From: a virus
Lineage: Duplodnaviria; Heunggongvirae; Uroviricota; Caudoviricetes
IMG/VR virus record: IMGVR_UViG_3300029241_000184
DNA length: 18,645 bases
Strand: one strand, 5' to 3'
The translations under genes and the position numbers were made by a program. The notes beneath the pieces were generated by a model that did no database searches, had not been told where the DNA came from, and saw only the letters and a program-made list of their open reading frames with translations. Each line of letters opens with the position of its first letter. The stretch's first letter is position 1. This document shows, piece after piece, positions 1 through 13,138 of this stretch.

Positions 1-54
1 GCTGATAGAAACAGAAGCCACTGGAGCACCTCAAAAACACCATCATACACTAAA

Positions 55-210
55 TCAGTAAGTTGGCAGCATCACCTCCATATTGTTCTTTTCAGCATAA
101 TCTTTGATATATTCGGACTGATTATGTAAAGAATATTGCTGATGGTCGGTAGACATCCTCAAGTACTGCGCGACCCTAACTCTATGATTTTTGTCATTTT
201 CGCTAGCCAT
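55..210 (-). pseudogene. Short ORF (51 aa) with a serine-recombinase-like N-terminus; probable truncated or frameshifted gene remnant
   Basis: My own translation of the minus strand from ATG at 210 gives MASENDKNHRVRVAQYLRMSTDHQQYSLHNQSEYIKDYAEKNNMEVMLPTY then a stop at 55-57. The R-x-S-T-D-x-Q / YSL.NQ / YAE pattern resembles the catalytic N-terminus of resolvase/invertase-type serine recombinases. Below the 60-aa ORF track threshold; too short to be a functional recombinase. Confidence 0.3.
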
Positions 211-492
211 GCACGAAACCTCATGGATGATTCAATACAATGTAGTGGATAAAATTGATCAAATTTTAACCGAATTCAACTGTTTTATCATTGATTAGAG
301 CGAATTTGGTAGATCTTCGAGGTGTATGATAATCGAGAAGAGATGTGAATTATTTAGCTGATATGACCGACAGCTTTCGTTATGTGGACTCAATGTCCCC
401 ATTTGTAAATGGCTATGCTTAGTCCACATAGGTTAATGGTGTGATTATTAATTCTTTAACTAAATCAAGATAGTTAATCCATCATGGGAGAG

Positions 493-1722
493 TTATGCGG
501 CAATAACTTTGCATTTTTGAGACGAAACATAGTCACTCCACCATTGCATGAGAACCACCCGTTCAGTGAGATACTCTGCACGATTGTAGGCTGCAATTAT
601 TTCATCTTTCTTCGAGTGGGCAAGGGCGGCTTCTAAGACATCAGTCCTAAACTTGCCAGACTCCTCAGCAGCCGTTCTAGCAATGGATCGCATACCGTGA
701 GCTACAAGCTCACCTCCGAAACCCATACGGATTATGGCCGCATTAGCTGTTTGTTCATGCATGTGATTGAGTGGAGCTTTGATACTGGGGAACACCCACT
801 CTCTATGCCCGCTGATGACTTTCATTAAATCCAAAACTCGCAAAGCTTCTTTGCTCAGTGGAACTTTGTGAGGCTTCTTCATTTTCATAAACTCCGCCGG
901 GATGTTCCACATGCCAGTTTCAATATCAATATCTGACCATCTTGTGCGAACAGCTTCACCTGGGCGAACCCATGTGAGAAGTTGCCACTCAATCAGTAGC
1001 CTTGTTTCCAAACGGATAGAAGCATTGTTTAGAGCAACCAAGAAGCGAGGGAGTTCGGAAGGGGGTAATGCTGGCATATTCTGTTTTTTTGGCTTGCTGA
1101 ACCGTTGCCCCAGGTTGTCTGCCGGGTTGAATTCTATGAGTTCTTCTGTTGCTGCATAGCGGAAAATTTCATTCAGGCGGGATATGATGCGGCGAAGTGT
1201 TTCAAGGACACCTCGTTTTTCTATGGGTTCTAAATGCTGTTTAAGCATTTTAGGGCGAATCTCCTTAATTGGGGTATCACCCAATGTGGAAAAGATATTT
1301 CTCTCTAGGCTTCGCCAGATGTCGTTAGCATGATCTTGGGAGATGCCTGACGTTTTGACTTTCTCATCAAGCCACTTCTTGGCTACTGCTTGAAATGTAT
1401 GTTCCGTGGCATCTTTCAGTGCATTGGCTTTTTGGTTGTTATGAACTTGGGGGTCTATACCATTTGTAAGCAACGACAAGTATTCATCACGTAAAGCTCG
1501 TGCCTTCGCAAGTGTAAGGTGAGGATAGGTTCCTAAGCTCACCTTAGTTCGCTTTTTGGTCACAGGCACTGCATATCTGAAATACCAATTTTTCTTCCCT
1601 CCCTTCGCCAGGGGAGCGATTCGCAACAGCAAACCATCGCCGTCAAAAAGGTTAACCTCTTTTTCGGCAGGTTTGGTGCTTTTGATTTCAGTGTCAGTGA
1701 GCTTCTTAGCGATTTTGGCCAT
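493..1722 (-). CDS. int: Tyrosine recombinase, P4-family integrase (integrase of an older, neighbouring island)
   Basis: ORF 493..1803; preferred start is the in-frame ATG at 1722 (MAKIAKKLTDTEIK..., GAGGG about 10 nt upstream). N-terminus KLTDTEIK...DGDGLLL is typical of P4-like integrase arm-binding domains; C-terminus carries HGMRS and AYNRAEY, consistent with the H-x-x-R and catalytic Tyr boxes. Paralogous to the integrase at 11401..12591. Confidence 0.88.
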   Translation of the reverse strand: MAKIAKKLTDTEIKSTKPAEKEVNLFDGDGLLLRIAPLAKGGKKNWYFRYAVPVTKKRTKVSLGTYPHLTLAKARALRDEYLSLLTNGIDPQVHNNQKANALKDATEHTFQAVAKKWLDEKVKTSGISQDHANDIWRSLERNIFSTLGDTPIKEIRPKMLKQHLEPIEKRGVLETLRRIISRLNEIFRYAATEELIEFNPADNLGQRFSKPKKQNMPALPPSELPRFLVALNNASIRLETRLLIEWQLLTWVRPGEAVRTRWSDIDIETGMWNIPAEFMKMKKPHKVPLSKEALRVLDLMKVISGHREWVFPSIKAPLNHMHEQTANAAIIRMGFGGELVAHGMRSIARTAAEESGKFRTDVLEAALAHSKKDEIIAAYNRAEYLTERVVLMQWWSDYVSSQKCKVIAA

Positions 1723-1820
1723 GTTTGGGACCCTCGATTTTAGGACCCATCTTCGTGGGTCCCATTCAGGGTGCCATAACTCGTAGTTCTCAGCAATTCT
1801 CACTAGACTACAATAGACGT

Positions 1821-1854
1821 AAAAAAGCCCGCAGAGCTTGTGCTGTGCGGGCTT
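1821..1854 (-). terminator. Hairpin plus T-run on the minus strand; diverged duplicate of the ssrA terminator
   Basis: aaaaaagcccgcagagcttgtgctgtgcgggctt matches the ssrA terminator at 12708..12742 (aaaaaagcccacagggcttgtgccgtgcgggctt) with three substitutions; GC stem followed by a T-run when read on the minus strand. Confidence 0.5.
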
Positions 1855-1888
1855 AGTAGACTTTACTGAACTTCAGTACATCAATATT

Positions 1889-1910
1889 TGGTGGGCTGGC
1901 GGAGTCTGAC
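1889..1910. other. Degenerate copy of the ssrA 3' end; likely attR of the P4-like satellite and junction between the two tandem islands
   Basis: tggtgggctggcggagtctgac versus the true ssrA 3' end tggtggagctggcgggagttgaac at 12775..12798 (about 20 of 24 positions with two 1-nt gaps), lying the same distance and order from the terminator-like hairpin as in the intact ssrA. Confidence 0.5.
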
Positions 1911-1961
1911 TTTGTCTTTTAATTGTCTGTATTTAATGGTTTTTTATTAAATTGAGATTTT

Positions 1962-1982
1962 GGATATACCTAAGCGTATACC
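1962..1982. repeat. Two GTATACC-type motifs (ggatatacc, cgtatacc); candidate integrase arm-type sites on the far arm
   Basis: Same heptamer family as the four copies at 12614..12661 next to int; acctaagcgtataccaat here versus acctaaacgtataccaat there. Confidence 0.4.
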
Positions 1983-2102
1983 AATTCTGCTTTGTAGGCA
2001 CAAAAATACAGTCATGCTGGTATGACAATTCCAACCCCGTCACAGCTTGTATCCATCTGGTCACACATGACAAAAGCAGGCAACCAATACTAAGAATTTA
2101 CT

Positions 2103-2762
2103 TTACGGCTCTTCGCTATTGGGGTTCTTAACTTTTTCCCATTCAATGCCCAACCCTTTAAATTTTTGTGCAAATGGGATTACTATGAGCGCAACACAAG
2201 CCCCTAATAGTGCCATTCTCTCAGTGGTTAAAAAATTAAATCGTATATCTGCAATTACTATAAGTAATAAGGCGACAGCAAGAAACCAAGTAACTCGTTG
2301 AAAAATATCCATCGTTTGAGATTTTTTCTGCCGAATATCATTTTTCCTAACTGCTGACTGCTCTGCGGTAAGGGCTCGAAAAGTTGGGAAAAGATTGAAA
2401 TCAGATTTAACTAATTCACCCGAATCACTGACTGAATACAGTGAAAATGGCAATGGGTTATTAGGCAGGGAGGATACGGTCACCAAGAAAAGTGGGATTT
2501 TTTCATTTCCAATTGCTTGTTTGTATCTTTTTAATTGATTTAGAGTGTTTTCGCTATGTGCAAATCTGTCTGACTTTATTTCAATAATAGCAAGATATTC
2601 TTTCTTTTCTGGATCTATAATTGCAAAGTCTGGTCTATATGTGTTTTTGCCATCGTTGGAGAAAAATGCTGGTTCGTATAATATAGAATCTTTGGTATAT
2701 CCTAGTGATAATAAGTATTCAGAGAATTTATTTTCCGCCTCTGAATGGTAATTGTTGTCCAT
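2103..2762 (-). CDS. Membrane-anchored protein with an N-terminal restriction-endonuclease-like (PD-(D/E)xK, HsdR-N-like) motif and two C-terminal transmembrane helices; AT-rich cargo gene
   Basis: 219-aa ORF with GAGAGGGA about 7 nt upstream of the ATG at 2762. N-terminal segment LGY...YRPDFAIIDPEKKEYLAIIEIKS carries a D ... E-I-K arrangement as in restriction-endonuclease-fold proteins; C-terminus has two hydrophobic stretches (WFLAVALLLIVIADI and ALLGACVALIVIPFA). Visibly AT-rich compared with the neighbouring primase gene. Confidence 0.7.
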   Translation of the reverse strand: MDNNYHSEAENKFSEYLLSLGYTKDSILYEPAFFSNDGKNTYRPDFAIIDPEKKEYLAIIEIKSDRFAHSENTLNQLKRYKQAIGNEKIPLFLVTVSSLPNNPLPFSLYSVSDSGELVKSDFNLFPTFRALTAEQSAVRKNDIRQKKSQTMDIFQRVTWFLAVALLLIVIADIRFNFLTTERMALLGACVALIVIPFAQKFKGLGIEWEKVKNPNSEEP

Positions 2763-2956
2763 TACAGTCCCTCTCTGCTGTGTGAAAACTAGTGAGCTAA
2801 ATTAATAAGGTAACTAAAAAACGCAAGAGATTCAATTGATTAACGAGTGATAGGTCAAGTCAAGGTCAAACTCGGCGATCATGATGGTTATCTTGTTGAA
2901 TCACAGCCAGACATGATGAATTTCTAGGTTGGAGAAAAAACTTTTTTTCAGGAAAA

Positions 2957-3058
2957 CTGTTCACACTGTTCACACTGTTCACACCGTTGTTTTTGCTTTT
3001 AATTTCATAGTGATACGTTGTGAATGGTTGGTAAACAGTGAACACTTTACTGTTCATT
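2957..3058. repeat. Iteron cluster: three tandem CTGTTCACA repeats (2957..2983) plus inverted and variant copies (gtgaaca 3038..3044, tgttcat 3052..3058); candidate ori-type alpha-binding iterons
   Basis: Tandem 9-bp repeats seen directly; the core TGTTCAC matches the P4 type I iteron octamer TGTTCACC that I recall as the alpha-protein binding site in P4 ori and crr. Lies immediately downstream of the alpha-like gene. Confidence 0.6.
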
Positions 3059-3108
3059 TTTGCCGTTTTGCAGGTAAAAAAAGACCGGCGATTGCCGGTC
3101 AGGGTAGA

Positions 3109-5442
3109 TTATTTTGCTACAGGGTCATCACATTTCGGCAGCCAGTCGGCGTTGCTTTCCTCTCTTAGTGTTAGATTGGTTTGTATGCCCTGATTTTTTC
3201 GGCGCTTCTCATAACTTAGCCCGTACTCTTTCAGCATAGCTGGCAGCCCCTTACCGAACATGGTGAGGCTCAGGGTGTTCCTGTAGCCGTGGGCCTCCAT
3301 ATACGCCAGATAGGCATGATACAGATACAGGCGCGGCTGACGCGGAATGATGTTGGCATTGCCAATATACATTCCCTCAGGCTCCGGCAGTGCTTCCAGA
3401 TAGCCGCAAAAATCAAATGTCGGGTCAGCATCGCGTTTAATACTGAGCGCCTCGTCCGAGTTCTGCTGTGACTGGAGCAGGGCGCGGGCGGTCATCGGGT
3501 CGCTGAACTTCTGCATAAGCTGCCGAACAATCACCGCCAGCTCACGGGCGATTTTATTCTTAAGCTGCGGGTCACGTTCCTCCGGGGCAATCTGTTCCGG
3601 GAAATGCAGAATCACCCGGCGCCGTGAGACACCGCCGCTACGGTCGGTAAAGCGCATCGGGTTATTGTTCACGGCCAGAATCACCGCTGGAATATGGGTG
3701 GAGTACGCATCCTTGTATTTCGGGTCAACGGAGACCGCATCCCCGCCGGTGATGGCCTTGAGTCCTGCCCCGTCACCACTCCATTTTTCCTGGTCAGGCA
3801 GGCGTATCAGCGAGAAGCCAATCAGCGCAGCGCGTTCACGCGGTGATTCCAGCGTTTCGATGGTGGCCGATGTGGCGTTATCTTCCCCGGCGAGCAGGGT
3901 CGCAATTTCGGCCAGAATACTTTTCCCGCTGCCACCCGGCCCGGTCACTTCGAGAAAGAGCTGCCAGTCGTAGCGGTTCGCCAGTACCATAAACAGGGCG
4001 GCAAGTATCACGTCGCGTTTTTCCGGTCGGCCACCGGCGGCACGGTCGAGCCAGCGCCAGAAATCCGGCGCATGGGTTTCCAGCGTTTCGCCCTCCACCG
4101 GTGGGGTAAAATCGACATCACAGAGTGTGCGCAGCCAGTGCGATTTATGATGCGGGCTGAAAGTACCGGTAGCGGTATCGAGTACGCCGTTACGAAAACC
4201 AATCAGACGGCGCGCCGGTGCGTCCTGCTGCGGAATAATCAGTTTCAGGGTCTCCACCACTGAGGCAATTTTCCCCGACGAGAACGGTGCGCGCAGACGC
4301 TGAAATAACCCGGCCACGTCGCGGGCAAAATCCGATGGCGGAATGATTTTCCATATACCGGCCTCATAGCGGGACAGGAGCTGGCCATTTGCGTCCACGG
4401 CCAGCGCTTCGCCGTAATGTTCATGCACCCGCATTGCCTTTTCACTGGTGCTCATGGCGGTAAATTCCGCCTCGCTCATGGTAGTGAAAGGACTGTCAGC
4501 CAGTGGCCGGATGGCGTCATAAATCGCTTTCCGCGTCGCCTCTTCGCCTTTCTGAACGAACGCATCATTCCAGTCACCGAACACCGGCGGCAGGGCAACA
4601 ACACCCTCACAGGCGTCTGCGGCCGCAGCGGCTTTTGTCTGGCCGGCGCCGTTAAGGTCACGGTCGGCGGCGAGGACAATCTGACAGGCCGGGTGTTTCT
4701 GACGGGCAAGGCTCGCCAGAGAAAAGAGGTTCACGGAGGACAGCGCCACCATGACGGTTTCGCTGGTCAGGTGATGTACGGTGAGTGCCGTCGCATAACC
4801 CTCCGCAATCCACAGGCGTTTTCCGGCCTGTTTTTTTCCTCCGATGACATGACATGTCCCTTTGACCTGACCGCCTTTCAGGGTGCGTTTGAGACCGTCA
4901 GCATTAATAAGCTGAAGGTTAACCAGTGCGCCGGTATCCTCATACAGCGGGACAACCACATCCCCGGCGCGGAACGTCACGCCGCCGGTTTTATGCATGA
5001 CTGTCAGTACCGGACATTCCCGGTCGGGGAACCCCTTGCGGGTGAGGTAGGCGTTGTCGGTGGCCGGGCGCGTTTTCTCCAGCAGTCTGACGGCCAGCGC
5101 GGCCGCCGCTTTGCGGTCGGCATCGGTTTCAGCCTCTGCGGCTGCCATCACTTCCGGGGCAACCGGCGACAGATTGCCGGTCACGGCGTTCACCTTCCCG
5201 GCGGCTTCTGACGGGGTCACGCCAAACACTTTTTCTACCAGCTTAAGCCCGTCACCCGCGCCGCACTGATTGCAGAACCACGTCCCGCGCCCTTCTTTAT
5301 CGTCAAAGCGAAAACGGTCAGAGCCGCCACACACCGGACAGGCCTGATGGCGGTTTTTAATCACCTTCACACCCAGCGCCGGAAGAATGCGCGGCCAGTG
5401 GCCGCACGCCTGTTTTACCGTTTCTGTTACGTTCATTTTCAT
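3109..5442 (-). CDS. P4 alpha-type primase/helicase (zinc-binding primase N-terminus plus helicase domain)
   Basis: ORF 3109..5493; preferred start at ATG 5442 (MKMNVTETV..., GAGGGAG upstream) giving 777 aa, the length of P4 alpha. N-terminal CPVCGG...CNQCG zinc-binding motif; Walker A-like GPGGSGKS in the C-terminal half. Confidence 0.9.
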   Translation of the reverse strand: MKMNVTETVKQACGHWPRILPALGVKVIKNRHQACPVCGGSDRFRFDDKEGRGTWFCNQCGAGDGLKLVEKVFGVTPSEAAGKVNAVTGNLSPVAPEVMAAAEAETDADRKAAAALAVRLLEKTRPATDNAYLTRKGFPDRECPVLTVMHKTGGVTFRAGDVVVPLYEDTGALVNLQLINADGLKRTLKGGQVKGTCHVIGGKKQAGKRLWIAEGYATALTVHHLTSETVMVALSSVNLFSLASLARQKHPACQIVLAADRDLNGAGQTKAAAAADACEGVVALPPVFGDWNDAFVQKGEEATRKAIYDAIRPLADSPFTTMSEAEFTAMSTSEKAMRVHEHYGEALAVDANGQLLSRYEAGIWKIIPPSDFARDVAGLFQRLRAPFSSGKIASVVETLKLIIPQQDAPARRLIGFRNGVLDTATGTFSPHHKSHWLRTLCDVDFTPPVEGETLETHAPDFWRWLDRAAGGRPEKRDVILAALFMVLANRYDWQLFLEVTGPGGSGKSILAEIATLLAGEDNATSATIETLESPRERAALIGFSLIRLPDQEKWSGDGAGLKAITGGDAVSVDPKYKDAYSTHIPAVILAVNNNPMRFTDRSGGVSRRRVILHFPEQIAPEERDPQLKNKIARELAVIVRQLMQKFSDPMTARALLQSQQNSDEALSIKRDADPTFDFCGYLEALPEPEGMYIGNANIIPRQPRLYLYHAYLAYMEAHGYRNTLSLTMFGKGLPAMLKEYGLSYEKRRKNQGIQTNLTLREESNADWLPKCDDPVAK

Positions 5443-5456
5443 CGTTGTTTTCTCCC

Positions 5457-5777
5457 TCAGTGCACTACCGGTACGGTGATGTGACGGGCGCAAAGCTCAT
5501 CCATCACGGCCAGCCCGAGAAAGGACAGCGACGGCGCGGCTTTGAGTGGACCGGCTTCCATTAAATCTTCCAGTAATGCACAGGCTATCTGGCGGCCTTT
5601 TTCCTCGCCGTGCTGGCGCAGGTAGAAGCCCTCCAGCTCGGTAGCGATGGCACTTTCCAGCGCGTCGAGGGTGAGGTTCGGGTAGCGGCGCTGGCGTTCG
5701 CACAGGGTCAGCCATGCACAGGCCACGGCGCGACGATACAGCGCGGCGCGTAATACGGGCGGTAATGGCTTTTTCAT
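5457..5777 (-). CDS. Hypothetical protein of the satellite early operon (106 aa)
   Basis: ORF whose start overlaps the stop of the upstream ORF (translational coupling), ending 15 nt before the alpha start; same strand and operon as the alpha gene. No recognisable motif. Confidence 0.55.
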
Positions 5778-6001
5778 ACGTTGCCCTCCCCGGTCAGCCA
5801 GTGCTGATTGCAGCGTTCAACCACGCCGTCGAGCTGGGCGGTCATGAGGTAAATCACGGAGGTGAGCTGTAACTGCTGCGCCGGGTCACGACGAACGGTG
5901 GCGCAGTCCTGTACCTGCATCAGGTCGCTGACGAGCTGGCCGACATTGCGCATATGCTCCAGACATTCGAGGTCACGGGCGGTAATGGTGGTGTGTCTCA
6001 T
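5774..6001 (-). CDS. Hypothetical small protein of the satellite early operon (75 aa)
   Basis: ORF with start/stop overlaps (ATGA) to both neighbours on the same strand, typical of coupled small genes in P4-like early operons. Confidence 0.5.
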
Positions 6002-6192
6002 GCGCGCACCTCCGCAACAGGCAGACGGCCAGCAAATGAGAGGACGTAATCGCGAACGAGGGAAAGGCGTGCGGCGTGCTCATCACCGGCAACGGTGCGG
6101 AGCATACAAATACGGGGTTTACGGTCTGCACGACGAACGGCGGCAAACACAAAAACAAATTGCGGGTGTAACGGGGTGAGGATAGTAGCCAT
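5998..6192 (-). CDS. Hypothetical small protein (64 aa), possibly Icd-like; short form of the 185-aa ORF
   Basis: Internal ATG at 6192 ([19 protein letters not shown]...) preceded by GGAGG about 8 nt upstream; the longer 5998..6555 extension is low-complexity and overlaps the AlpA-like gene, so the short form is preferred. The Icd-like label is a recollection of similar annotations, not verified. Confidence 0.45.
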
Positions 6193-6551
6193 GATGGCAG
6201 CCTCCATTGAGTAGCGGTTACTGCTACCACCGGAAACGCCAATTTCACTGGTGGCAGCCCGAACGGGGTTGGCGTAACCGGCCTCAATGGATACCGGCCA
6301 GCCCGAAGGCTGCCCCGCCCGGACTACCATTATCTTGCTGGAACCATGGTGTATAAAAAGACACCACAACCCGGAAAATGGGTGTGCCTGAGCTACGACG
6401 AAAAAAAAGACGCACGGCGCGTCTGGTGTCGCCATTGAGTTTCGCGGAACGCCAATTCCGGCTGTCGATTTTGCGACAGCGGGAAAACTATACCTGGAAA
6501 CGGCGAAAAGAAGCAAGCCAGAAAAAGGGGCTGAATGCTGAACGGTCATCA

Positions 6552-6818
6552 TCATGCGTCACAGCCCCGGTTGCGTTCGGCAATGCGATCTGCCATCCAT
6601 GCGGTGATTTCAGACTGCGCCCACGCCACGTTTTTACCGCCCAGGCTGATTTGTTTCGGGAAGGCTTCCCGGCTGATGAGGTCATAAATGGTCGACCGGG
6701 ACAGGCCACACAGATGCATCACTTCGGGCAGGCGGATAAAGCGCTCCTGAACGGCATCAGAAACCGGCATCAGCGGCGCGGCAGGGGCAGAAGACGGGGA
6801 AGAAAAAGCGGTGTGCAT
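6552..6818 (-). CDS. alpA: AlpA-family phage transcriptional regulator (small DNA-binding, excisionase-like)
   Basis: [54 protein letters not shown] matches the AlpA/excisionase-like helix-turn-helix family; GAGGT upstream of the ATG at 6818. An alternative start at 6770 (MPVSD) is possible. Confidence 0.8.
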
Positions 6819-7087
6819 CGGGCTACCTCACAAAGTCCATACAGTGCCGGTCGTGTCCGTCCGGCTTCGGGTAGCTCTCTATTTTGTGAATATTTTCCCT
6901 CAGGGCAACAAGTCTTTTTATAGCTCCTCGTCACACAACAGAGCGATTTTTGAACAATGGCAAACGCTGGCAAACAGATGCAAATCAATGCATTACATTG
7001 CAGTAACTTTAAGTACTTTCACTTATATATTTCCTCATAATTAATCGGAAAAAAGACTAAATCCGACACCCCAGGCAAAAAGCAAAA

Positions 7088-7192
7088 GGTGAACAGTAGT
7101 GAACAGTCGGTGAACAGTTACACCCTCAACTGTTCACCCTTTATCTTACTGTATTACTTATCTTTTTCTTTTCAGTGAACAGTAGTGAATAG
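7088..7192. repeat. Second iteron cluster: GGTGAACAGT x3 (7088..7117), inverted TGTTCACC (7131..7138), GTGAACAG (7175..7182) and variant gtgaatag; candidate crr-type alpha-binding iterons in the divergent early/late control region
   Basis: Direct and inverted copies of the same octamer as at 2957..3058, about 4.1 kb away; I recall that P4 ori and crr are separated by about 4.5 kb. Confidence 0.6.
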
Positions 7193-7268
7193 TTATAAGT
7201 AAAAAAACAAACAGTGAGTAAGGTTTTCCTGAGACCTTTCTCTGGCCAGCCGGGTTTTAAGGTCTGTT

Positions 7269-7286
7269 TGTGCCATTTTTGCCACA
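7269..7286 (+). promoter_or_regulatory. TGT-N12-ACA dyad upstream of the sid-like gene; candidate Ogr/Delta activator site of the late promoter
   Basis: TGTgccatttttgccACA about 75-90 nt upstream of the ATG at 7359; P2/P4 late promoters carry a TGT-N12-ACA element near -55. No clear -10 identified, so low confidence. Confidence 0.3.
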
Positions 7287-7358
7287 ACGGCAATGAATCG
7301 TGTTGTTGTGTCTGGCGCGGCAGAATCTCCTCAGGTTGAAACGAAGAGGAGACCCGAC

Positions 7359-8096
7359 ATGACTCAGACCGCTGTTATTCCCGACTACCTTAAACCTGCA
7401 ATGGAACGCCTTGAGACTGCCCGCTCGGCGCATCTCGTCAATGCCAGCCGTATGGATGAAACCACGACGGCCATCAGCCAGGTGCAAACGCAAAAAAAGG
7501 AACTGGAGCAGGAAAACGGCAATGATTCCGGCGCATGGCGCGCCGCCTTTCGTGCCGGTGGTGCTGTCATTACCGACGAGCTGAAACAACGCCATCTGGC
7601 GCGCGTGGCACGGCGGGAACTGGCGCAGGAATGTGACAGCATGAACGAGGTACTGTCTTTTGAGCTGGACAGGCTCAAAGGAGCCTGTGACCGCACGGCC
7701 AGAGCATACCGTCAGGCACATCACGGCGTCCTCAGTCAGTATGCAGAGCATGAACTTGATGCTGCCCTGCGTGAAAGCTGCGGTGCCCTCATCAGAGCAA
7801 TGAAACTCAACATACTGGTTCTGAATAATCCGCTTGCTAATACGACCGGGCATCAGGGATATATCGAACCGGAAAAAGTTGTAATGCAGCAGGTGAAAGC
7901 GTGGCTTGAACAGGCCGTAAAGGGCTGCAATATCCGTCTGACCGATGAACCGGTGCTGTTTAAAACAGGGCTGTCGGCTTCCACACTGCCGCATATGGAA
8001 CATGACGTTGCGACCATGCCCGGTCAGCGAAAAGTCTGGCAGGAAAAAATGTGGGAACGTGAAGCTGACCTGAAAGCACGGGGGTTATTGTCATGA
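7359..8096 (+). CDS. sid: Sid-like protein (P4 capsid size determination / external scaffold), first gene of the late operon
   Basis: ORF 7293..8096 trimmed to ATG 7359 (MTQTAVIPDYLKP..., AAGAGGAG upstream) giving 245 aa, close to P4 Sid (244 aa); position immediately upstream of the Ogr/Delta-like and psu-like genes matches the P4 sid-delta-psu order. Called from size and synteny only. Confidence 0.55.
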   Translation: MTQTAVIPDYLKPAMERLETARSAHLVNASRMDETTTAISQVQTQKKELEQENGNDSGAWRAAFRAGGAVITDELKQRHLARVARRELAQECDSMNEVLSFELDRLKGACDRTARAYRQAHHGVLSQYAEHELDAALRESCGALIRAMKLNILVLNNPLANTTGHQGYIEPEKVVMQQVKAWLEQAVKGCNIRLTDEPVLFKTGLSASTLPHMEHDVATMPGQRKVWQEKMWEREADLKARGLLS

Positions 8097-8338
8097 TGCG
8101 CTGCCCTTTCTGCCGCACGGCGGCACACGTTCGCACCAGCCGCTATATGTCTGACAGCGTCAAAGAGAGTTACCTGCAGTGCCAGAATGTGCACTGCTCG
8201 GCGACATTCAAAACGCATGAGTCCATCTTTGAAGTGATACGTTCGCCGGTCGTCGATGAGAAACCCGCGCCGGTGCCGACAGCCCCCGTGGCACCCCGTC
8301 GGGTAAAAGGCTGCTACAGCTCGCCGTTCCGCCATTAA
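8093..8338 (+). CDS. Ogr/Delta-family zinc-finger late-gene transcriptional activator
   Basis: MMRCPFCRTAAHVRTSRYMSDSVKESYLQCQNVHCSATFKTHES has the C-x2-C ... C-x4-C arrangement and RTSRY / QCQN motifs of P2 Ogr and P4 Delta; start overlaps the stop of the sid-like gene. Confidence 0.85.
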   Translation: MMRCPFCRTAAHVRTSRYMSDSVKESYLQCQNVHCSATFKTHESIFEVIRSPVVDEKPAPVPTAPVAPRRVKGCYSSPFRH

Positions 8339-8354
8339 TCAGGAGAGACAACCC

Positions 8355-8921
8355 GTGACCACTCTGACCTTACAGCAGGCCTATGACGCCTGTCAGACGA
8401 ACAAAACCGCGTGGCTGAACCGTAAAACCGAACTGGCCGCCGCAATGCAGGAATATCAGGAATTATTGCTGGATGACAATGTATCAGGCTCCCGCAGATT
8501 ACAGATGCTGCGTGACCTGATTGACGTAAAAAAATGGGAAGTTAATCAGGCCGCCGGTCGCTACATCTTCTCGCATGAGGAGGTGCAGCGCATCAGCATC
8601 CGTAACCGGCTGCATGATTTTATGCAGCAGAACGGCGCAGAGCTGGCCGCCGCACTGGCACCGGAGCTGATGGGGATTAAAAACCAGCCCGCGATGATAA
8701 AAAATCGCGCGCTTGACCGTTCAGTCTCTTACCTGAGAGAAGCTCTTTCCGTCTGGCTGACCGCTGGAAATGACATTAATTATTCTGCACTGGATAACGA
8801 CATCTTAACGGCCATCGGATACAGGCCTGACGCGCCTTCGCGGGATGATAATCGTGAAAAATTCACCCCTGCACAGAACATGATTTACACCCGTCGACGC
8901 GCCGGACTGGCCGCGCAGTAG
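8355..8921 (+). CDS. psu: Psu-like protein (P4 polarity suppression / capsid decoration)
   Basis: 188 aa (P4 Psu is 190 aa), third gene of the sid-delta-psu type operon; N-terminal region ...QQAYDACQTNKTAWLNRKTELAAA... and QAAGRYI resemble Psu as I recall it. Confidence 0.75.
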   Translation: MTTLTLQQAYDACQTNKTAWLNRKTELAAAMQEYQELLLDDNVSGSRRLQMLRDLIDVKKWEVNQAAGRYIFSHEEVQRISIRNRLHDFMQQNGAELAAALAPELMGIKNQPAMIKNRALDRSVSYLREALSVWLTAGNDINYSALDNDILTAIGYRPDAPSRDDNREKFTPAQNMIYTRRRAGLAAQ

Positions 8922-8967
8922 TCTGTCAAAAAATCCCTGTAAATCCCGTCATTTTTCCCGAATTTAG

Positions 8968-8994
8968 CCATGCATCCCTAAGGTGCATGGTTTT
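8968..8994 (+). terminator. Candidate rho-independent terminator after the psu-like gene
   Basis: Inverted repeat ccatgca / tgcatgg with a 9-nt loop followed by tttt. Confidence 0.4.
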
Positions 8995-9094
8995 GCATGC
9001 GTTTTCCCGACCCTGCACTCCCTGCCAGCGCCAGTTGCGGCGCGGCCTGAGGCCACCTTTGCACCTGCATTAAAAGCGGTCCCTTAAGCGGGCA

Positions 9095-9113
9095 GGCGTG
9101 GCGGGGAGAGCAT
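9095..9113. other. cos-like site (P2/186/P4-type 19-nt cohesive end sequence)
   Basis: ggcgtggcggggagagcat differs at one position from the phage 186 cohesive end GGCGTGGCGGGGAAAGCAT as I recall it, and at three from P2 (GGCGAGGCGGGGAAAGCAC); lies just downstream of psu, where cos sits in P4. Confidence 0.55.
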
Positions 9114-9375
9114 TGCGCGCTAAGTTAAAGATACTTTTAATTTTACAACTACGTTGTGATATCTTTTTAACTCGCTAATTCAATAGTGATAAAACAATTT
9201 TTTATAGCTAATAAGAATCAATTCCAGACTAACAATCGTCAAAAACTATGTTTTGTGAATGGCTATCTAAAAATACTGGCTTAATTATTTGACGTGATCT
9301 AAAGTACTGATGAAATTATTATACTGATTTAATTTTTTAACTGCTAAAAACATTAACAAAAAATAAGGGATTCAC

Positions 9376-11361
9376 ATGGCAGAGAAATCATTTAATGTAG
9401 AAGTACAGATGGATTATTTAGATAAGGTTTCTAAATCTTCTGCATTACAAGCAATCGCTGAGTTGGTATGGAATGCCTTAGATGCTGATGCTGAAAATGT
9501 ATATGTTGATTTGACAGAGTCTGAATTAGGACTCTCGCATATATTTATCAGGGATGATGGTAATGGTATTCCCTATGAGAATGCAGAAAAATTATTTAGT
9601 TCACTGGGCGGATCATGGAAAAAAGACAAGGTTTTATCAGAAAGAAAATCTCGTTTTTTACACGGAAAAGAAGGGCAGGGACGTTTTAAGGCATTCTCAA
9701 TAGGTCGATATATTGAGTGGGATACTACTTATTTACTTGATGATGTATATTATGAATATAAAATAAAAGGAATAGCTGATAATAAGAAAAAGATTTCAGT
9801 TTCTGATAAGGTAGTATCAAGTGAAGTTAAATCAGGAACAGTTGTTTCTATATTGGAATTGGTGAAAAACTTCACCTCTTTGACACCTCAAAAACTATCT
9901 GAGTTTCTTTCCACTACACTTGCTTTATATCTTAGTAAATACCCATCCGTAAAAGTATTTGTAAATCGAGAACAAATCGATCCAACAGCACAGATTTTAT
10001 TTGATACAAGCTATAAATTAGATGATGTAGTTTATTGTGATGAATTACATTCATATGAGTTACAAGTTATTGAATGGAAGTCAGCTAAAGAAAATGAGAT
10101 TTTTTTATGCGACAAAGAAGGTTTTCCCTTAATAAGTTATGAGAAGAAAATTAGAGGGACTGGTACATATTCTTATTCTGTTTATTTGAAGTCTACACAT
10201 TTGACCAAACTTTCCCATGAGGGTACTTTGTCGCTCATGGATTTAGAGCCTTCTTTAAGCCCTGTATTAAATAAAGTCGAAGGTTTGATAAAGGAACACT
10301 TCCGGAAAAGAGATCATGAAAAGTCAAGGGAGTTAATTGATAAATGGAAAAATGAAGGTGTTTATCCGTATGTTGGTAAGGCCGAAAATATTGTTGAGGA
10401 TGCTGAAAGAAAAGTATTCGATATTATGGCCATCAATGTTATAAAATACATACCACAATTTGATAATGGCGATCTTAAACTTAAGAAATTTCAGTTTAAA
10501 TTACTCAAGCATATTGTTGGGAGTTGCCCTGATGACTTGAGAACTATATTAGAGGAGGTTCTCTCGCTTCCTAAGGAAAAACAAGCTGAATTGGCTGAGA
10601 TATTAAGGGATGCCTCATTGTCAGCTGTTATTAGTGTTTCCAAAATAATTACTGATAGATTGAAGTTCATATCTGGGCTTGAGAATGTATTATTTCATCC
10701 GAATACAAGAAAAGTATTCAAAGAGAGAAGTCAGCTTCATAAAATAATGGCGGATAATACATGGTTTTTTGGTGAGTCTTTTACATTGAGTGTCAATGAT
10801 AAGTCACTAACTGAAGTATTAAAAGTACATTTGGAAAAGCAAGGGATTGATATTCCAGTTGATGAGAAAGTAACTAGGATAGATGGTAGTGTAGGTATTG
10901 TTGATTTAATGCTTACTAGAAGTATAGGCAAAAATTACCCAGATGAGCGTGAGCATATTATTATCGAATTAAAGGCACCTAAAGTAAATATAGGTCAATC
11001 AGAAATAGAACAGGTTAAATCCTATGCGTATGCAGTTGCTGAAGACGCAAGATTTAATGGTTTAAAAACAAAGTGGAACTTCTGGGTTATATCGAATGAG
11101 CTCACAACTTATGCTCTCAGAGAATTAAAACAAAAAAACCTTCCTGAAGGTGCAATATATCAAGCTGAAGAAATGACTATTTGGATAAAAACTTGGTCCC
11201 AACTTATTCAAGAGAACAAACATAGATTGGGTTTTCTACAGAATCAGCTTAATATTTCGTATGACCGTGAAGATGGACTACAGTTCTTAAAGCAAAAGTA
11301 TGCTGAGTACACTGAGGGCGTTGTATTTGAAAATGAATCACAGGATGAGTATATAGATTAA
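9376..11361 (+). CDS. 661-aa GHKL-type (HATPase_c, Bergerat-fold) ATPase fused to a C-terminal PD-(D/E)xK-like nuclease motif; candidate single-gene anti-phage defense protein carried as satellite cargo
   Basis: Single uninterrupted ORF with AAGGGA 6 nt upstream of the ATG. N-terminus: E29-x3-N33-A-x-D36-A (N box; E29 codon at 9460), D60-D-G-N-G64-I (G1 box, 9556..9567), G97-K-E-G-Q-G102 (G2 box, 9664..9681). C-terminus: GIVD510LML ... IIIE531LK533 (D at 10903..10905, E-L-K at 10966..10974) in the arrangement of PD-(D/E)xK nucleases. Strongly AT-rich with A/T-ending codons, unlike the flanking P4 core genes. Confidence 0.85.
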   Translation: MAEKSFNVEVQMDYLDKVSKSSALQAIAELVWNALDADAENVYVDLTESELGLSHIFIRDDGNGIPYENAEKLFSSLGGSWKKDKVLSERKSRFLHGKEGQGRFKAFSIGRYIEWDTTYLLDDVYYEYKIKGIADNKKKISVSDKVVSSEVKSGTVVSILELVKNFTSLTPQKLSEFLSTTLALYLSKYPSVKVFVNREQIDPTAQILFDTSYKLDDVVYCDELHSYELQVIEWKSAKENEIFLCDKEGFPLISYEKKIRGTGTYSYSVYLKSTHLTKLSHEGTLSLMDLEPSLSPVLNKVEGLIKEHFRKRDHEKSRELIDKWKNEGVYPYVGKAENIVEDAERKVFDIMAINVIKYIPQFDNGDLKLKKFQFKLLKHIVGSCPDDLRTILEEVLSLPKEKQAELAEILRDASLSAVISVSKIITDRLKFISGLENVLFHPNTRKVFKERSQLHKIMADNTWFFGESFTLSVNDKSLTEVLKVHLEKQGIDIPVDEKVTRIDGSVGIVDLMLTRSIGKNYPDEREHIIIELKAPKVNIGQSEIEQVKSYAYAVAEDARFNGLKTKWNFWVISNELTTYALRELKQKNLPEGAIYQAEEMTIWIKTWSQLIQENKHRLGFLQNQLNISYDREDGLQFLKQKYAEYTEGVVFENESQDEYID

Positions 11362-11371
11362 CATAATTGAA

Positions 11372-11402
11372 AGGCTCGCCAGTTTATTCTGGCGAGTTTC
11401 TT
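11372..11402 (+). terminator. Rho-independent terminator after the cargo gene, convergent with the end of int
   Basis: Stem ctcgccag / ctggcgag (8 bp) with a 6-nt loop, followed by tttctt. Confidence 0.5.
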
Positions 11403-12591
11403 AAAGACTGGATACTTTATTACCCCACCAATTCATTAATTCTATTCTTTGCGGAAGATATATAGAGCGATTATAAGCTCTTCGTACTTCATCTTTATAA
11501 CTATGAGCTAGTGCTGCCTCAATAACATCAGCATTGAATCCTGCTTCATTCATGGCAGTACTGGCTATAGAACGTAAACCATGTGCAACAAGCTTTCCAC
11601 CATAACCAATTCTCTTCAGCGCAGCATTAGCAGTCTGGCTATTCATTGGCAGCTTAGGGTCATTTCTGCTAGGAAAAACATGTTCTCGATGGGCACTGAT
11701 TGGCTTCATCACTTCTAAAATTTCTAATGCTTGAGGAGACAAAGGTACGATGTGCTCTCGTTTAGCCTTCATCCGTTCGGCTGGAATCGTCCAAAGCTTC
11801 GCATCAAGATCGATCTCTTCCCACCGAGCTCCGGAAGCCTCAGAAGGACGCACAAGGGTCAGGAGCTGCCACTCAATTAGACAGCGAGTCGAAACAGATA
11901 GATTCGACATGACTAGAGAACGCATCAGCTTTGGCAATTCCTCTGGCCGCAGCGTCGGCATATTTTGCTTTTTGGGCTTCTCAAAGGCCATCCCAACTCC
12001 TGAGGCTGGGTTCGCATCAATCAGACCCGTGTTTACGGCATAAATCATTATCTCGTTAATGCGTTGCACCAGTCGACGTACAGTCTCAAGCGCCCCACGA
12101 GCTTTGATGGGCTCAAGAGCTTCAACCAGTGTCCGGGCTTTGATTTGCTGAACAGGGATCTCACCGATGGCAGGGAATACATCTTTCTCCAGTGAGCGCC
12201 AAATGTCTTTTGCGTAATCAGGGGTAACGCTTTTGCTTTTGAGCTGGAACCAGTTAGCGGCGACCGTTGAAAAAATACTGTCCAGTGCGATTTGCTGCTG
12301 TTCCTCTGCAACTTCAGCTTGAATCTGTGGGTCGATTCCATTGGCTAATAAGGCAAGGTAATCAGCTCTTAACCCTCGGGCATCAGCAAGCGATAGGGCG
12401 GGGAAGGCTCCGAGTCCCATCATTGTCCGCTGTTTTGTTGCCGGACGTTGATAACGGAAACGCCAGAGCTTTTTGCCGCTGGTTTTCACTATCAGGAAAA
12501 GCCCATCGCCATCATGTAGCGTTAGATCCTTCTCTAGCGCTTTAGCGCGCAGAACTTCGGTGTTGGTCAGGGGGCGTGTTGTCCGTGCCAC
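11401..12591 (-). CDS. int: Tyrosine recombinase, P4-family integrase of the satellite, adjacent to ssrA
   Basis: 396-aa ORF; N-terminal LTLHDGDGLFL...GKKLWRFRY as in P4-type integrases; C-terminal HGLRS and AYNRSIY catalytic boxes; same orientation as ssrA and immediately downstream of it. Confidence 0.92.
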   Translation of the reverse strand: MARTTRPLTNTEVLRAKALEKDLTLHDGDGLFLIVKTSGKKLWRFRYQRPATKQRTMMGLGAFPALSLADARGLRADYLALLANGIDPQIQAEVAEEQQQIALDSIFSTVAANWFQLKSKSVTPDYAKDIWRSLEKDVFPAIGEIPVQQIKARTLVEALEPIKARGALETVRRLVQRINEIMIYAVNTGLIDANPASGVGMAFEKPKKQNMPTLRPEELPKLMRSLVMSNLSVSTRCLIEWQLLTLVRPSEASGARWEEIDLDAKLWTIPAERMKAKREHIVPLSPQALEILEVMKPISAHREHVFPSRNDPKLPMNSQTANAALKRIGYGGKLVAHGLRSIASTAMNEAGFNADVIEAALAHSYKDEVRRAYNRSIYLPQRIELMNWWGNKVSSL

Positions 12592-12613: not shown

Positions 12614-12661
12614 GGTATACGCTTTTAGGTATACATCCTACCGTATACCTAAACGTATACC
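12614..12661. repeat. Four direct copies of a GTATAC(C) motif at 12- to 14-bp spacing between the int start and the ssrA terminator; candidate integrase arm-type sites
   Basis: ggtatac (12614), ggtatac (12628), cgtatacc (12642), cgtatacc (12654); the same motif recurs at 1962..1982 at the other end of the element. Confidence 0.45.
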
Positions 12662-12707
12662 AATAATCACCGGATTTAGCCGGATGCTCTCGGACAACTA
12701 CAGACAC

Positions 12708-12742
12708 AAAAAAGCCCACAGGGCTTGTGCCGTGCGGGCTTT
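12708..12742 (-). terminator. ssrA rho-independent terminator
   Basis: On the minus strand, stem aagcccgcacggcacaagccctgtgggctt followed by tttttt, about 33 nt downstream of the mature tmRNA 3' end. Confidence 0.7.
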
Positions 12743-12774
12743 CAGGATTTCACCGGACGTATCCGGATCATAAT

Positions 12775-13138
12775 GTGGTGGAGCTGGCGGGAGTTGAACC
12801 CGCGTCCGAAATTCCTACATCCTCGGTACTACATGCTTAGTCAGTCTTTATATTCGCTTGCCAGCTGCGGACGGACACGCCACTAACAAACTAGCCTGAT
12901 TAAGTTTTAACGCTTCAACCCCAGGCAGGGCTTCCACGCGATCTCTTTTGGGTTTGACCTCTCTTGATCCCCGTCCTAAGAGCGGAGGCTAGGGAGAGAG
13001 GGCTCTAAGCAGGTTATTAAGCTGCTAAAGCGTAGTTTTCGTCGTTTGCGACTATTTTTTGCGGCTTTTTACGAGGCCAACCGCCCCTCGGCATGCACCT
13101 TGGGTTTCGCAAATCCCGTCGAATCCAGAATCAGCCCC
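12775..13138 (-). ncRNA. ssrA: tmRNA (SsrA, transfer-messenger RNA)
   Basis: Minus strand reads GGGGCTGATTCTGGATTCGACGGG ... GGAGTTGAACCCGCCAGCTCCACCA; internal tag reading frame at 13017..13049 (minus) encodes ANDENYALAA followed by a stop. Length about 363 nt; ends are within a few nt. Confidence 0.95.

What the first reader, a model, noticed from the sequence alone, without database searches (positions are those of the whole stretch)
2103..2762. Second AT-rich cargo gene: membrane-anchored restriction-endonuclease-fold protein at the att-distal end of the satellite
A 219-aa protein combines an N-terminal motif typical of HsdR-N / Mrr-like PD-(D/E)xK domains (YRPDFAIIDPE ... YLAIIEIKS) with two C-terminal hydrophobic helices. 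It lies between the degenerate attR and the ori-type iterons downstream of alpha. It is AT-rich like the main cargo gene, suggesting a second accessory slot. A nuclease-fold domain tethered to the membrane is an unusual pairing and could act as an abortive-infection effector or a membrane-located DNA sensor.
Basis: partly seen in the sequence, partly recalled or inferred. Interest (0 to 1): 0.6.

Follow-up and report, generated by a model that had tools for sequence, protein, structure and literature searches.

The report
Membrane-anchored nuclease cargo gene in satellite
A P4-like phage satellite inserted next to the E. coli ssrA gene carries, in a rarely used slot at its far end, a small gene for a restriction-type nuclease domain attached to a very conserved two-helix membrane hairpin; relatives travel alone in integrons and transposons, so it is probably an untested one-gene anti-phage defence of a kind already reported once.

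Summary

The gene lies inside the satellite, between the attR core plus an arm-type repeat and the crr-type iterons below alpha. It sits on a 946-bp AT-rich segment that 97%-identical satellites lack. This slot was described in 2026 as a minor P4 defence hotspot.

Relatives all share the ~220-aa architecture and have no conserved neighbour. They occur as integron cassettes in marine bacteria, as Tn7-like transposon cargo in Pseudomonas aeruginosa, and beside restriction or conflict genes.

The closest known system is Epona, a Vibrio cholerae integron cassette (nuclease plus 2-TM "holin" domain) with anti-phage activity. I could not test homology to it.

Best reading: a stand-alone membrane-tethered nuclease defence. 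Function and mechanism are inferred, not shown. Moderately interesting; a new variant of a known kind.

The parts
2103..2762 (-). Gene for the 219-aa membrane-anchored PD-(D/E)xK protein (stop codon included). RefSeq homologue WP_021536585.1, annotated 'type I restriction enzyme HsdR N-terminal domain-containing protein'.
2391..2762 (-). Residues 1-124: cytoplasmic PD-(D/E)xK nuclease domain, alpha-beta-beta-beta-alpha-beta core plus two extra strands.
2571..2639 (-). Residues 42-64, YRPDFAIIDPEKKEYLAIIEIKS: beta-hairpin carrying the D45...E61-x-K63 catalytic motif.
   Evidence: D45 97%, E61 97%, K63 80% in 120 representatives
2298..2390 (-). Residues 125-155: charged, K/R-rich first half of the long helix (stalk) that leads into the membrane segment.
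2172..2297 (-). Residues 156-197: two hydrophobic helices (157-171, 183-197) joined by a short loop. In alignment A1, D172, R182, G187, A191 and P196 are invariant and E181 nearly so.
2106..2171 (-). Residues 198-219: amphipathic tail AQKFKGLGIEWEK, the most conserved stretch of the family, followed by a variable end.
2763..2931 (-). Upstream region of the gene with the Shine-Dalgarno sequence GAGAGGGA (about 2768-2775). No consensus sigma-70 promoter was detected.
1986..2931 (.). 946-bp AT-rich cargo segment (37% GC). It is present in 6 of 5426 complete E. coli genomes. About 60 bp stand in its place in otherwise 97%-identical satellites.
1889..1909 (.). Degenerate attR core, a copy of the ssrA 3' end. 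It is also the junction with a second island to the left.
1965..1985 (.). 21-bp repeat TATACCTAAGCGTATACCAAT, with a second copy at 12644-12664 next to int. Probably an integrase arm-type site, which places the gene inside the satellite.
2956..3060 (.). crr-type iterons (TGTTCAC, three direct copies plus inverted copies) below alpha.
   Evidence: P4 annotation of crr
3083..3100 (-). Intrinsic terminator of alpha. It separates the alpha operon from the cargo gene.
   Evidence: P4 t-alpha at the same relative position
3109..5442 (-). alpha primase-helicase of the P4-like satellite, 84% identical to P4 alpha. The enterobacterial copies of the cargo gene always follow it.
12776..12797 (.). attL core inside the 3' end of ssrA (tmRNA 12776-13138).

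Best explanation
The gene is a self-contained accessory (cargo) gene of a P4-like satellite. It occupies the minor variable slot between the alpha/crr replication module and attR.

Its product has an N-terminal cytoplasmic PD-(D/E)xK nuclease head of the HsdR-N / type IIG kind. In known enzymes that kind is a non-specific cleavage module that needs to be brought together with a partner to cut. The head sits on an antiparallel two-helix stalk whose hydrophobic tip is embedded in the inner membrane.

I propose that it is a one-protein anti-phage (anti-invading-DNA) defence in which the nuclease is the effector. The strongly conserved hairpin and tail would hold the enzyme at the membrane in an inactive state. 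They would switch it on by clustering when a phage perturbs the membrane or delivers DNA there.

Shown: gene reality, fold, motif conservation, hydrophobic hairpin, position in the satellite, stand-alone mobility.

Inferred: topology (N-in/C-in), nuclease activity, defence role, activation by oligomerisation.
For: Fold and motif:
- HSDR_N_2 scores above threshold.
- D45, E61 and K63 are kept in 97/97/80% of 120 representatives that are less than 50% identical to each other. This argues for catalysis rather than mere binding.

Membrane part:
- Two hydrophobic segments lie at the tip of a confident helical hairpin.
- There is no signal peptide, and K/R clusters flank both cytoplasmic sides.
- The tail and second hydrophobic helix carry 3.5-4.0 bits per column against 2.5 for the nuclease domain, in an alignment collected with the full-length query.

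Stand-alone function:
- The architecture is fixed at about 205-230 aa in nearly all the 150 hits listed out of 271 clusters.
- There is no conserved neighbour.
- Homologues are single-gene integron cassettes.

Defence-type contexts:
- P4-like satellites, always directly after alpha, even when sid and psu are only 26-68% identical and the main cargo differs.
- Tn7-like transposon cargo next to HEPN_RiboL-PSP.
- Beside CTD1/MComp1/SMC and NERD genes.
- Next to a type III Res gene.
- The slot is a reported minor P4 defence hotspot.

Precedent: Epona, a nuclease plus 2-TM cassette, protects E. coli from phages.

Selection: dN/dS is 0.17-0.24.
Against: - No phenotype is known for any member.
- PADLOC 2023 models give no significant hit.
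- There are no hits in the phage or plasmid collections.
- A Pseudomonas subclade on the Tn7-like element (P0042/43/47/49/54) has Ser instead of the canonical Asp45 while keeping the C-terminal module intact. So catalysis may be dispensable there.
- The membrane module is more conserved than the nuclease. That fits an effector or sensor role for the hairpin at least as well as an anchor role.
- The hydrophobic segments are only about 15 residues long, so a re-entrant rather than a spanning hairpin is possible.
- Some contexts look like housekeeping regions (L020, L024).
- No consensus promoter was found upstream.
Confidence: 0.4

Rival explanations
1. Abortive-infection pore. The nuclease-fold head is a DNA or DNA-end sensor, possibly with residual catalysis. 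The two-helix module is the effector. On sensing phage DNA the protein oligomerises into a holin-like pore or ion leak, collapses the membrane potential and kills or arrests the cell before phage release.
For: - The C-terminal hairpin and tail are the best conserved part.
- Charged or small residues sit in or next to the hydrophobic segments (in A1: D172, R182, G187, A191 invariant, E181 nearly so).
- The Pseudomonas subclade lost Asp45 but kept the module.
- The Epona C-terminus is described by its authors as a holin domain with 2 TM.
- Most integron-cassette defences tested in V. cholerae gave lysis or growth arrest at high multiplicity of infection.
Against: - D45 and E61 are retained in 97% of divergent members, which is unusual for a pure sensor.
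- No holin family in Pfam or PHROGs matches the C-terminal part.
- The hydrophobic segments are short.
Confidence: 0.25
2. A mobile-element function that is not host defence. Examples: a satellite nuclease that interferes with the helper phage genome (as the PLE NixI nuclease does with ICP1), superinfection or entry exclusion that benefits the element, or processing of incoming or outgoing DNA at the membrane.
For: - In Enterobacteriaceae the gene is tightly linked to the alpha/crr replication end of the satellite.
- It is carried only on mobile platforms.
- Satellites are known to use nucleases against their helpers (established knowledge; cited in PMC13586616, reference 17).
Against: - The same protein family occurs in integrons, a Tn7-like transposon and chromosomal islets of bacteria that have no P4-like satellites. 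A helper-specific role therefore cannot be general.
- Most P4-like satellites do without it: 5 of 5 sampled slots were empty, and only 6 of 1078 genomes that carry this alpha type have it.
Confidence: 0.12
3. A decaying passenger: a leftover fragment of a type I or type IIG restriction enzyme, fused by chance to hydrophobic sequence, with no present function.
For: - RefSeq names it only as an HsdR N-terminal domain protein.
- It is rare in E. coli, in 6 of 5426 genomes.
Against: - dN/dS is 0.17-0.24.
- The same full-length architecture recurs in 271 clusters across Gammaproteobacteria, Campylobacterota, Planctomycetota, Lentisphaerota and a Deltaproteobacteria MAG.
- The AF2 model is confident for a compact fold.
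- Motifs are nearly invariant in both halves.
Confidence: 0.03

Closest known systems
Epona (single-gene anti-phage integron cassette of the Vibrio cholerae N16961 chromosomal integron; Darracq et al., bioRxiv 10.1101/2024.07.02.601686)
   Same: It is one small protein with a PD-(D/E)xK-superfamily nuclease domain fused to a C-terminal module with two transmembrane helices. It is carried as an integron cassette, as many homologues of the window protein are. It showed anti-phage activity when expressed in E. coli.
   Different: The Epona nuclease domain is called Mrr_cat. The window family matches HSDR_N_2, HSDR_N or PDDEXK_9, and none of 120 members matches Mrr_cat at E<=0.01. Epona homologues were reported to be almost restricted to V. 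cholerae, and no V. cholerae protein appeared among the named hits. The window copy sits in a P4-like satellite, not an integron.
N-terminal nuclease domains of type I HsdR and type IIG/IIL restriction enzymes (BpuSI 3s1s, DrdV 7lo5, HsdR fragment 3h1t; Pfam HSDR_N_2 PF13588)
   Same: Same fold and the same D...ExK motif in a beta-hairpin.
   Different: There is no helicase motor, methyltransferase or specificity domain, and no hsdM/hsdS neighbours. The head is instead attached to a membrane hairpin. Total length is 219 aa.
Minor defence hotspot of P4-like satellites between the primase (alpha) and an att site (Moura de Sousa et al., NAR 2026, PMC13586616)
   Same: Same location. That paper assigns 7% of P4 defence systems to this interval.
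   Different: That study counted systems recognised by DefenseFinder or PADLOC. This protein is not recognised by the PADLOC models available here. I found no mention of it in the paper's text, and no supplement was held.
Two-TM membrane effectors of abortive-infection systems and pinholins (RexB, CBASS 2TM effectors, S21 pinholin); comparison from general knowledge
   Same: A short helical hairpin with charged flanks that could disrupt the membrane when oligomerised.
   Different: There is no sequence or profile similarity. Here the hairpin is covalently joined to a nuclease whose catalytic residues are conserved.
Shedu (SduA, DUF4263 PD-(D/E)xK nuclease), the second most common defence system in integron cassettes
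   Same: A single-gene PD-(D/E)xK nuclease defence that is frequent on cassettes.
   Different: There is no DUF4263 match. Canonical SduA is soluble and has no membrane hairpin (general knowledge).

Membership tests
PD-(D/E)xK nuclease superfamily, HSDR_N_2 (PF13588) | Profile match above the curated threshold | tested here: met
   28.5 bits against a cut-off of 25, E 1.7e-6, residues 19-86. 32 of 120 family representatives also match.
PD-(D/E)xK nuclease superfamily, HSDR_N_2 (PF13588) | Alpha-beta-beta-beta-alpha-beta core fold shared with solved nucleases | tested here: met
PD-(D/E)xK nuclease superfamily, HSDR_N_2 (PF13588) | Catalytic D...(D/E)xK residues present and conserved | tested here: met
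   D45, E61 and K63 are present. They are kept in 97%, 97% and 80% of 120 representatives. Exception: Ser45 in a Pseudomonas subclade.
PD-(D/E)xK nuclease superfamily, HSDR_N_2 (PF13588) | Metal-dependent DNA cleavage | not testable with these tools
   Needs biochemistry.
Type I restriction enzyme HsdR subunit (the RefSeq name suggests it) | SF2 helicase/translocase motor domains after the nuclease domain | tested here: not met
   The protein is 219 aa, and nothing but the nuclease domain and the membrane hairpin is found.
Type I restriction enzyme HsdR subunit (the RefSeq name suggests it) | Adjacent hsdM and hsdS genes | tested here: not met
   None in the window or in any homologue's neighbourhood.
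Epona (nuclease plus 2-TM integron-cassette defence) | Single gene; nuclease domain followed by two C-terminal TM helices | tested here: met
Epona (nuclease plus 2-TM integron-cassette defence) | Nuclease domain of the Mrr_cat type | tested here: inconclusive
   No Mrr_cat hit in 120 members at E<=0.01. However, both domains belong to the PD-(D/E)xK superfamily (general knowledge), and the Epona authors' domain annotations drew on sensitive searches (UniProt, HHpred, AlphaFold/Foldseek).
Epona (nuclease plus 2-TM integron-cassette defence) | Sequence homology to the V. cholerae Epona protein | not testable with these tools
Epona (nuclease plus 2-TM integron-cassette defence) | Anti-phage phenotype | not testable with these tools
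   Needs plaque assays.
Holin / pinholin | Match to a holin family profile, or a location in a lysis cassette next to an endolysin | tested here: not met
   No holin hit in Pfam or PHROGs for the C-terminal part. No endolysin neighbour.
Accessory gene of a P4-like satellite (primase-att minor hotspot) | Lies inside the att-delimited element, between alpha/crr and attR | tested here: met
   The attR core and arm-type repeat lie to its left, and the iterons and alpha to its right.
Accessory gene of a P4-like satellite (primase-att minor hotspot) | Presence/absence polymorphism among closely related satellites | tested here: met
   Hits H26-H30 are 97.4% identical from 2932 onward and lack the segment. 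5 of 5 sampled P4-like satellites have an empty slot, and so does P4 itself.
Integron gene cassette (homologues only) | attC site directly after the gene, within a one-directional array of short genes each followed by an attC | tested here: met
   By inspection...TAAC lies at or next to the stop codon and GCGTTA.. lies about 55-75 nt later, with internal inverted repeats. This holds in L005, L010, L017, L018, L019, L022 and L025, is partial in L011, and also holds in L012. IntegronFinder was not run. The window copy has no attC.
Shedu (DUF4263) | DUF4263 profile match | tested here: not met

The most novel reading that the evidence does not exclude
The family is a one-polypeptide immune device that couples the state of the inner membrane to DNA cleavage. 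The near-invariant hairpin has buried charges (D172, E181, R182) and a small-xxx-small motif (G187/A191). It would sense the local depolarisation or membrane remodelling caused by phage genome injection. It would respond by clustering, which brings the otherwise inert HsdR-N-type nuclease heads together to cut the DNA as it enters. This would be restriction without a recognition sequence or a methyltransferase, with self versus non-self decided by place and time.
Probability: 0.15. Interest if true: 0.75.

Novelty: new variant of a known kind. Interest (0 to 1): 0.42.

Why it matters
If the protein is a working defence, it is among the smallest nuclease-based ones. It has no modification partner, so it must tell foreign from self DNA in some way other than sequence or methylation. 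Membrane location is the obvious candidate.

The same gene moves between three kinds of vehicle: phage satellites, integrons and Tn7-like transposons. That makes it a clean example of defence genes as independent passengers.

It also fills the little-used alpha-att slot of P4-like satellites with a concrete, testable gene. Current defence-annotation models (PADLOC 2023) miss it, so it is one item of the still unannotated share of satellite cargo.

Tried and rejected
Database searches that found nothing useful:
- PADLOC on the protein and on 120 relatives gave only weak, inconsistent hits, for example mad2 in 10 of 120.
- NCBIfam gave nothing above noise.
- PHROGs gave nothing for the window protein.
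- A sequence search of PDB chains with the family profile gave nothing at E below 0.96.
- tblastn against the phage and plasmid collections gave no match.

Searches for a partner or alternative architecture:
- No neighbour is shared between loci.
- I looked for the C-terminal module fused to other N-terminal domains. Only truncated family members or the same ~220-aa architecture turned up.
- Profile searches on the C-terminal part found no holin family, only sub-threshold SecG-like noise.

Attempts to reach the Epona sequence:
- I searched the paper text and its supplement, searched by name, and made a broad profile search for V. cholerae members. All failed.
- One cluster look-up returned only unnamed metagenome proteins.

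- The AlphaFold-database Foldseek library was unavailable.
- A strict attC regular expression found nothing, and an ad hoc complementarity score discriminated poorly. The cassette call therefore rests on inspection of the arrays.
- The promoter scan of 1800-3200 found no consensus sigma-70 site.

Readings rejected:
- HsdR remnant: rejected on conservation and dN/dS.
- Part of a separate islet outside the satellite: rejected because the arm-type repeat and attR core lie beyond the gene.
- Functional dependence on the 661-aa main cargo: rejected because the gene occurs with different main cargos, and the main cargo occurs without it.

Full report
**Setting**

The window is the E. coli ssrA region. 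The tmRNA gene is at 12776-13138, and smpB, ratA, bamE, recN, nadK and grpE lie to its right.

A P4-like satellite of about 10.9 kb is integrated into the 3' end of ssrA. Its parts are:
- int, 11401-12591
- an AT-rich main cargo gene, 9376-11361
- psu, delta and a sid-like gene, 7293-8921
- C4 antisense RNA and isrK, 6247-6480
- alpA, an icd-like gene and a DUF5375 gene
- alpha, 3109-5442, 84% identical to P4 alpha
- TGTTCAC iterons at 2958-3044 and 7089-7181

Left of about 1890 a second island begins. It has its own integrase at 493-1803.

**Check of the observation**

The ORF at 2103-2762 (minus strand) starts with ATG, has a good Shine-Dalgarno sequence and encodes 219 aa. The quoted motifs are residues 42-52 and 56-64.

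Pfam HSDR_N_2 matches residues 19-86 above its gathering score. Two hydrophobic stretches, 157-171 and 183-197, pass the usual hydropathy threshold. The ORF is 35.8% GC, against 56% for the satellite core and 33.5% for the main cargo.

It is a real gene. dN/dS against three enterobacterial homologues is 0.17-0.24. Seventy full-length homologues were found at 36-99% identity.

**Where exactly it sits**

Six of 5426 complete E. coli genomes carry the gene at 98.9% identity, always in this satellite at ssrA. Other genomes carry the same satellite, 97.4% identical from 2932 to the end of the window and with the same main cargo, but without the gene.

Aligning the junctions shows that both forms share the attR core (GGGCTGGCGGAGTCTGA) and a 21-bp repeat (TATACCTAAGCGTATACCAAT). 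That repeat also occurs next to int at 12644-12664. The empty form then has about 60 bp before the iterons. The window has 946 bp (1986-2931) that carry the gene.

So the gene is inside the satellite, between the arm-type site and the crr-type iterons. P4 itself has attP, arm repeats, crr, the alpha terminator and alpha in the same order, with no gene in between. Five P4-like satellites sampled across the identity range also have an empty slot.

**The protein**

AlphaFold2 with a 28-sequence alignment gives a confident model (pLDDT 86.9, pTM 0.73). It has helix 8-19, strands 27-29, 46-50 and 55-64, helix 71-84 and strands 91-96, 106-111 and 117-120. A 48-residue helix (128-175) and a 33-residue helix (180-212) then form an antiparallel hairpin.

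In the beta-hairpin 46-64, D45 faces E61-x-K63, which is the canonical arrangement. D50 is in the turn.

There is no signal peptide. The stretch before the first hydrophobic segment and the tail after the second are both K/R-rich. The most likely topology therefore puts the head and the tail in the cytoplasm, with the hairpin tip in the membrane. This is an inference. With only about 15 hydrophobic residues per arm, a re-entrant hairpin cannot be excluded.

**Conservation**

In an alignment gathered with the full-length query, the nuclease domain averages 2.5 bits per column, the second hydrophobic helix 3.5 and the tail AQKFKGLGIEWEK 4.0. D172, R182, G187, A191, P196, Q199, K202, G205 and E207 are invariant, and E181 nearly so.

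A profile of the C-terminal 95 residues, searched against 1.84 billion cluster representatives, finds 271 clusters. Nearly all the listed hits are 205-230 aa with the module at about 120-218. The module is never seen on a different kind of protein.

Across 120 of these representatives D45 is kept in 97%, E61 in 97% and K63 in 80%. That set was collected with the C-terminal profile, so its C-terminal conservation is inflated but its N-terminal conservation is not.

One Pseudomonas subclade has Ser at position 45.

**Contexts of relatives**

Enterobacterial copies (82% identity or more: E. coli, Klebsiella, an Enterobacteriaceae MAG and IMG/VR contigs) always follow alpha in P4-like satellites. 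This holds even where sid and psu are only 26-68% identical and the main cargo differs. A Klebsiella element that has lost sid through alpha still keeps the gene.

More distant copies (35-61% identity) are not in satellites:
- In Microbulbifer, Halopseudomonas, Halomonas, Marinobacterium, Onishia, Cobetia, Sulfurimonas and a Campylobacterota genome, the gene sits in a one-directional array of short genes. Each gene is followed by an attC-like site, with ...TAAC at the stop codon and GCGTTA about 55-75 nt later. These are integron cassettes.
- The same cassette is 87-98% identical in DNA across four genera.
- In Pseudomonas aeruginosa it is cargo of a Tn7-like transposon, two genes away from a HEPN_RiboL-PSP gene.
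- Elsewhere it lies beside a CTD1/MComp1/SMC conflict system and a NERD gene, in a toxin-antitoxin-rich islet, after a type III Res gene, and next to an IS110 transposase.
- Two loci look like ordinary chromosomal neighbourhoods.

No neighbour is shared between loci. The pattern search found the family in only 11 of 185,579 species genomes, spread over several phyla. This is the profile of a rare, horizontally moving, self-sufficient gene.

**What it most likely does**

Three lines of evidence point to an anti-phage or anti-invading-DNA function: the mobile stand-alone carriage, the defence-type company and the location in a satellite defence hotspot.

The HsdR-N / type IIG class of nuclease domain is, in the known enzymes, a non-specific cutter that works only when brought together with a second copy (established knowledge of type I and IIG enzymes). 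The strong retention of the metal-binding D and E argues that cutting matters.

A protein like this has no methyltransferase partner, so it must be kept harmless to the chromosome. The unusually conserved hairpin and tail are the natural candidates for that control.

My best reading is a membrane-tethered nuclease that is activated by clustering at the membrane during infection (confidence about 0.4). The main rival is that the hairpin is itself the killing device, a holin-like pore, with the head acting as sensor (0.25). That rival explains the higher conservation of the C-terminus and the Ser45 subclade. A mobile-element function other than defence is less likely (0.12). A dead remnant is essentially excluded (0.03).

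**Comparison with what is known**

The closest described system is Epona from the Vibrio cholerae chromosomal integron. [quoted passage not shown] Architecture and carrier type agree.

The domain call differs (HSDR_N_2 here; no Mrr_cat hit in 120 members), and I could not obtain the Epona sequence. Membership is therefore untested.

It is not a type I HsdR subunit despite the RefSeq name, because there is no motor domain and no hsdM/hsdS. It is not Shedu. It matches no holin family.

**Verdict**

The slot and the general architecture both have recent precedents. That lowers the surprise.

This particular family is uncharacterised and is missed by the defence models available here. Its membrane module is remarkably conserved and its role is open.

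I rate it a new variant of a known kind, interest 0.42.

Noticed in passing
window 9376-11361 (+): The main cargo gene (661 aa, 33.5% GC) combines an N-terminal GHKL ATPase (HATPase_c_3, E 5.9e-15) with a C-terminal HSDR_N_2-like region (residues 495-554, E 9.7e-4). Both cargo genes of this satellite therefore carry the same class of nuclease domain. It has only partial similarity to BbrUII/HgiDII-type restriction enzymes and no confident PADLOC system call. In a related satellite the same slot holds an OLD-like ATP-dependent nuclease instead.
   Followed up: partly
window 1-1909: A second island lies in tandem with the satellite. Its integrase (493-1803, minus strand, 436 aa) is 50% identical to the satellite Int. 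It is preceded by an 89-bp copy (1806-1894, 71% identical) of the int-ssrA spacer at 12693-12781. The degenerate att core at 1889-1909 is therefore the shared junction of two elements.
   Followed up: partly
window 1965-1985 and 12644-12664: A 21-bp direct repeat (TATACCTAAGCGTATACCAAT, one mismatch) lies just inside each end of the satellite. It contains an internal palindrome (TATAC...GTATA). It is probably an integrase arm-type or accessory-factor site. It differs from the annotated 12-bp P4 arm repeats.
   Followed up: partly
window 6247-6334 and 6403-6480 (-): Rfam finds a C4 antisense RNA (the P4 CI-type immunity RNA, 82.9 bits) and isrK (74.5 bits). Both lie within the ORF annotated as an Icd-like protein.
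   Followed up: no
window 2956-3060 compared with L031 (P4) 4291-4590: The crr-type region below alpha has a single set of iterons (three direct TGTTCAC copies plus inverted copies). P4 crr consists of two 120-bp direct repeats. A second iteron cluster at 7089-7181 corresponds to ori.
   Followed up: no
L006-L009 (Pseudomonas aeruginosa), gene at 10001-10669 of L006: The Pseudomonas subclade of the family (P0042, P0043, P0047, P0049, P0054) has Ser in place of the canonical catalytic Asp45 (YRPSF) but keeps E61, K63 and the whole C-terminal module. At least P0042 (P. aeruginosa) rides on a Tn7-like transposon (TnsA, TnsB, TniB, TniQ) with a HEPN_RiboL-PSP gene and deaminase/QueC genes nearby.
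   Followed up: partly
L017, L018, L019, L011 (Halopseudomonas, Halomonas, Marinobacterium, Cobetia): The same integron cassette, with identical boundaries (GTTAGC...GCTAACAAT), is 87-98% identical in DNA across four genera. This indicates recent exchange of the cassette between chromosomal integrons.
   Followed up: partly
L004 (Klebsiella pneumoniae) 5634-10666: This is a degraded satellite at ssrA. It has int, a GmrSD_N plus HEPN_RiboL-PSP cargo and a split psu. Everything from sid to alpha is missing, yet the membrane-nuclease gene is intact at 92% identity. That suggests it is retained for its own sake.
   Followed up: no
precomputed Pfam column: The enterobacterial members carry a weak precomputed hit to a recent Pfam family, PF27326 'MJECL32'. 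That family is not in the local Pfam copy, and no paper in the library mentions it.
   Followed up: partly
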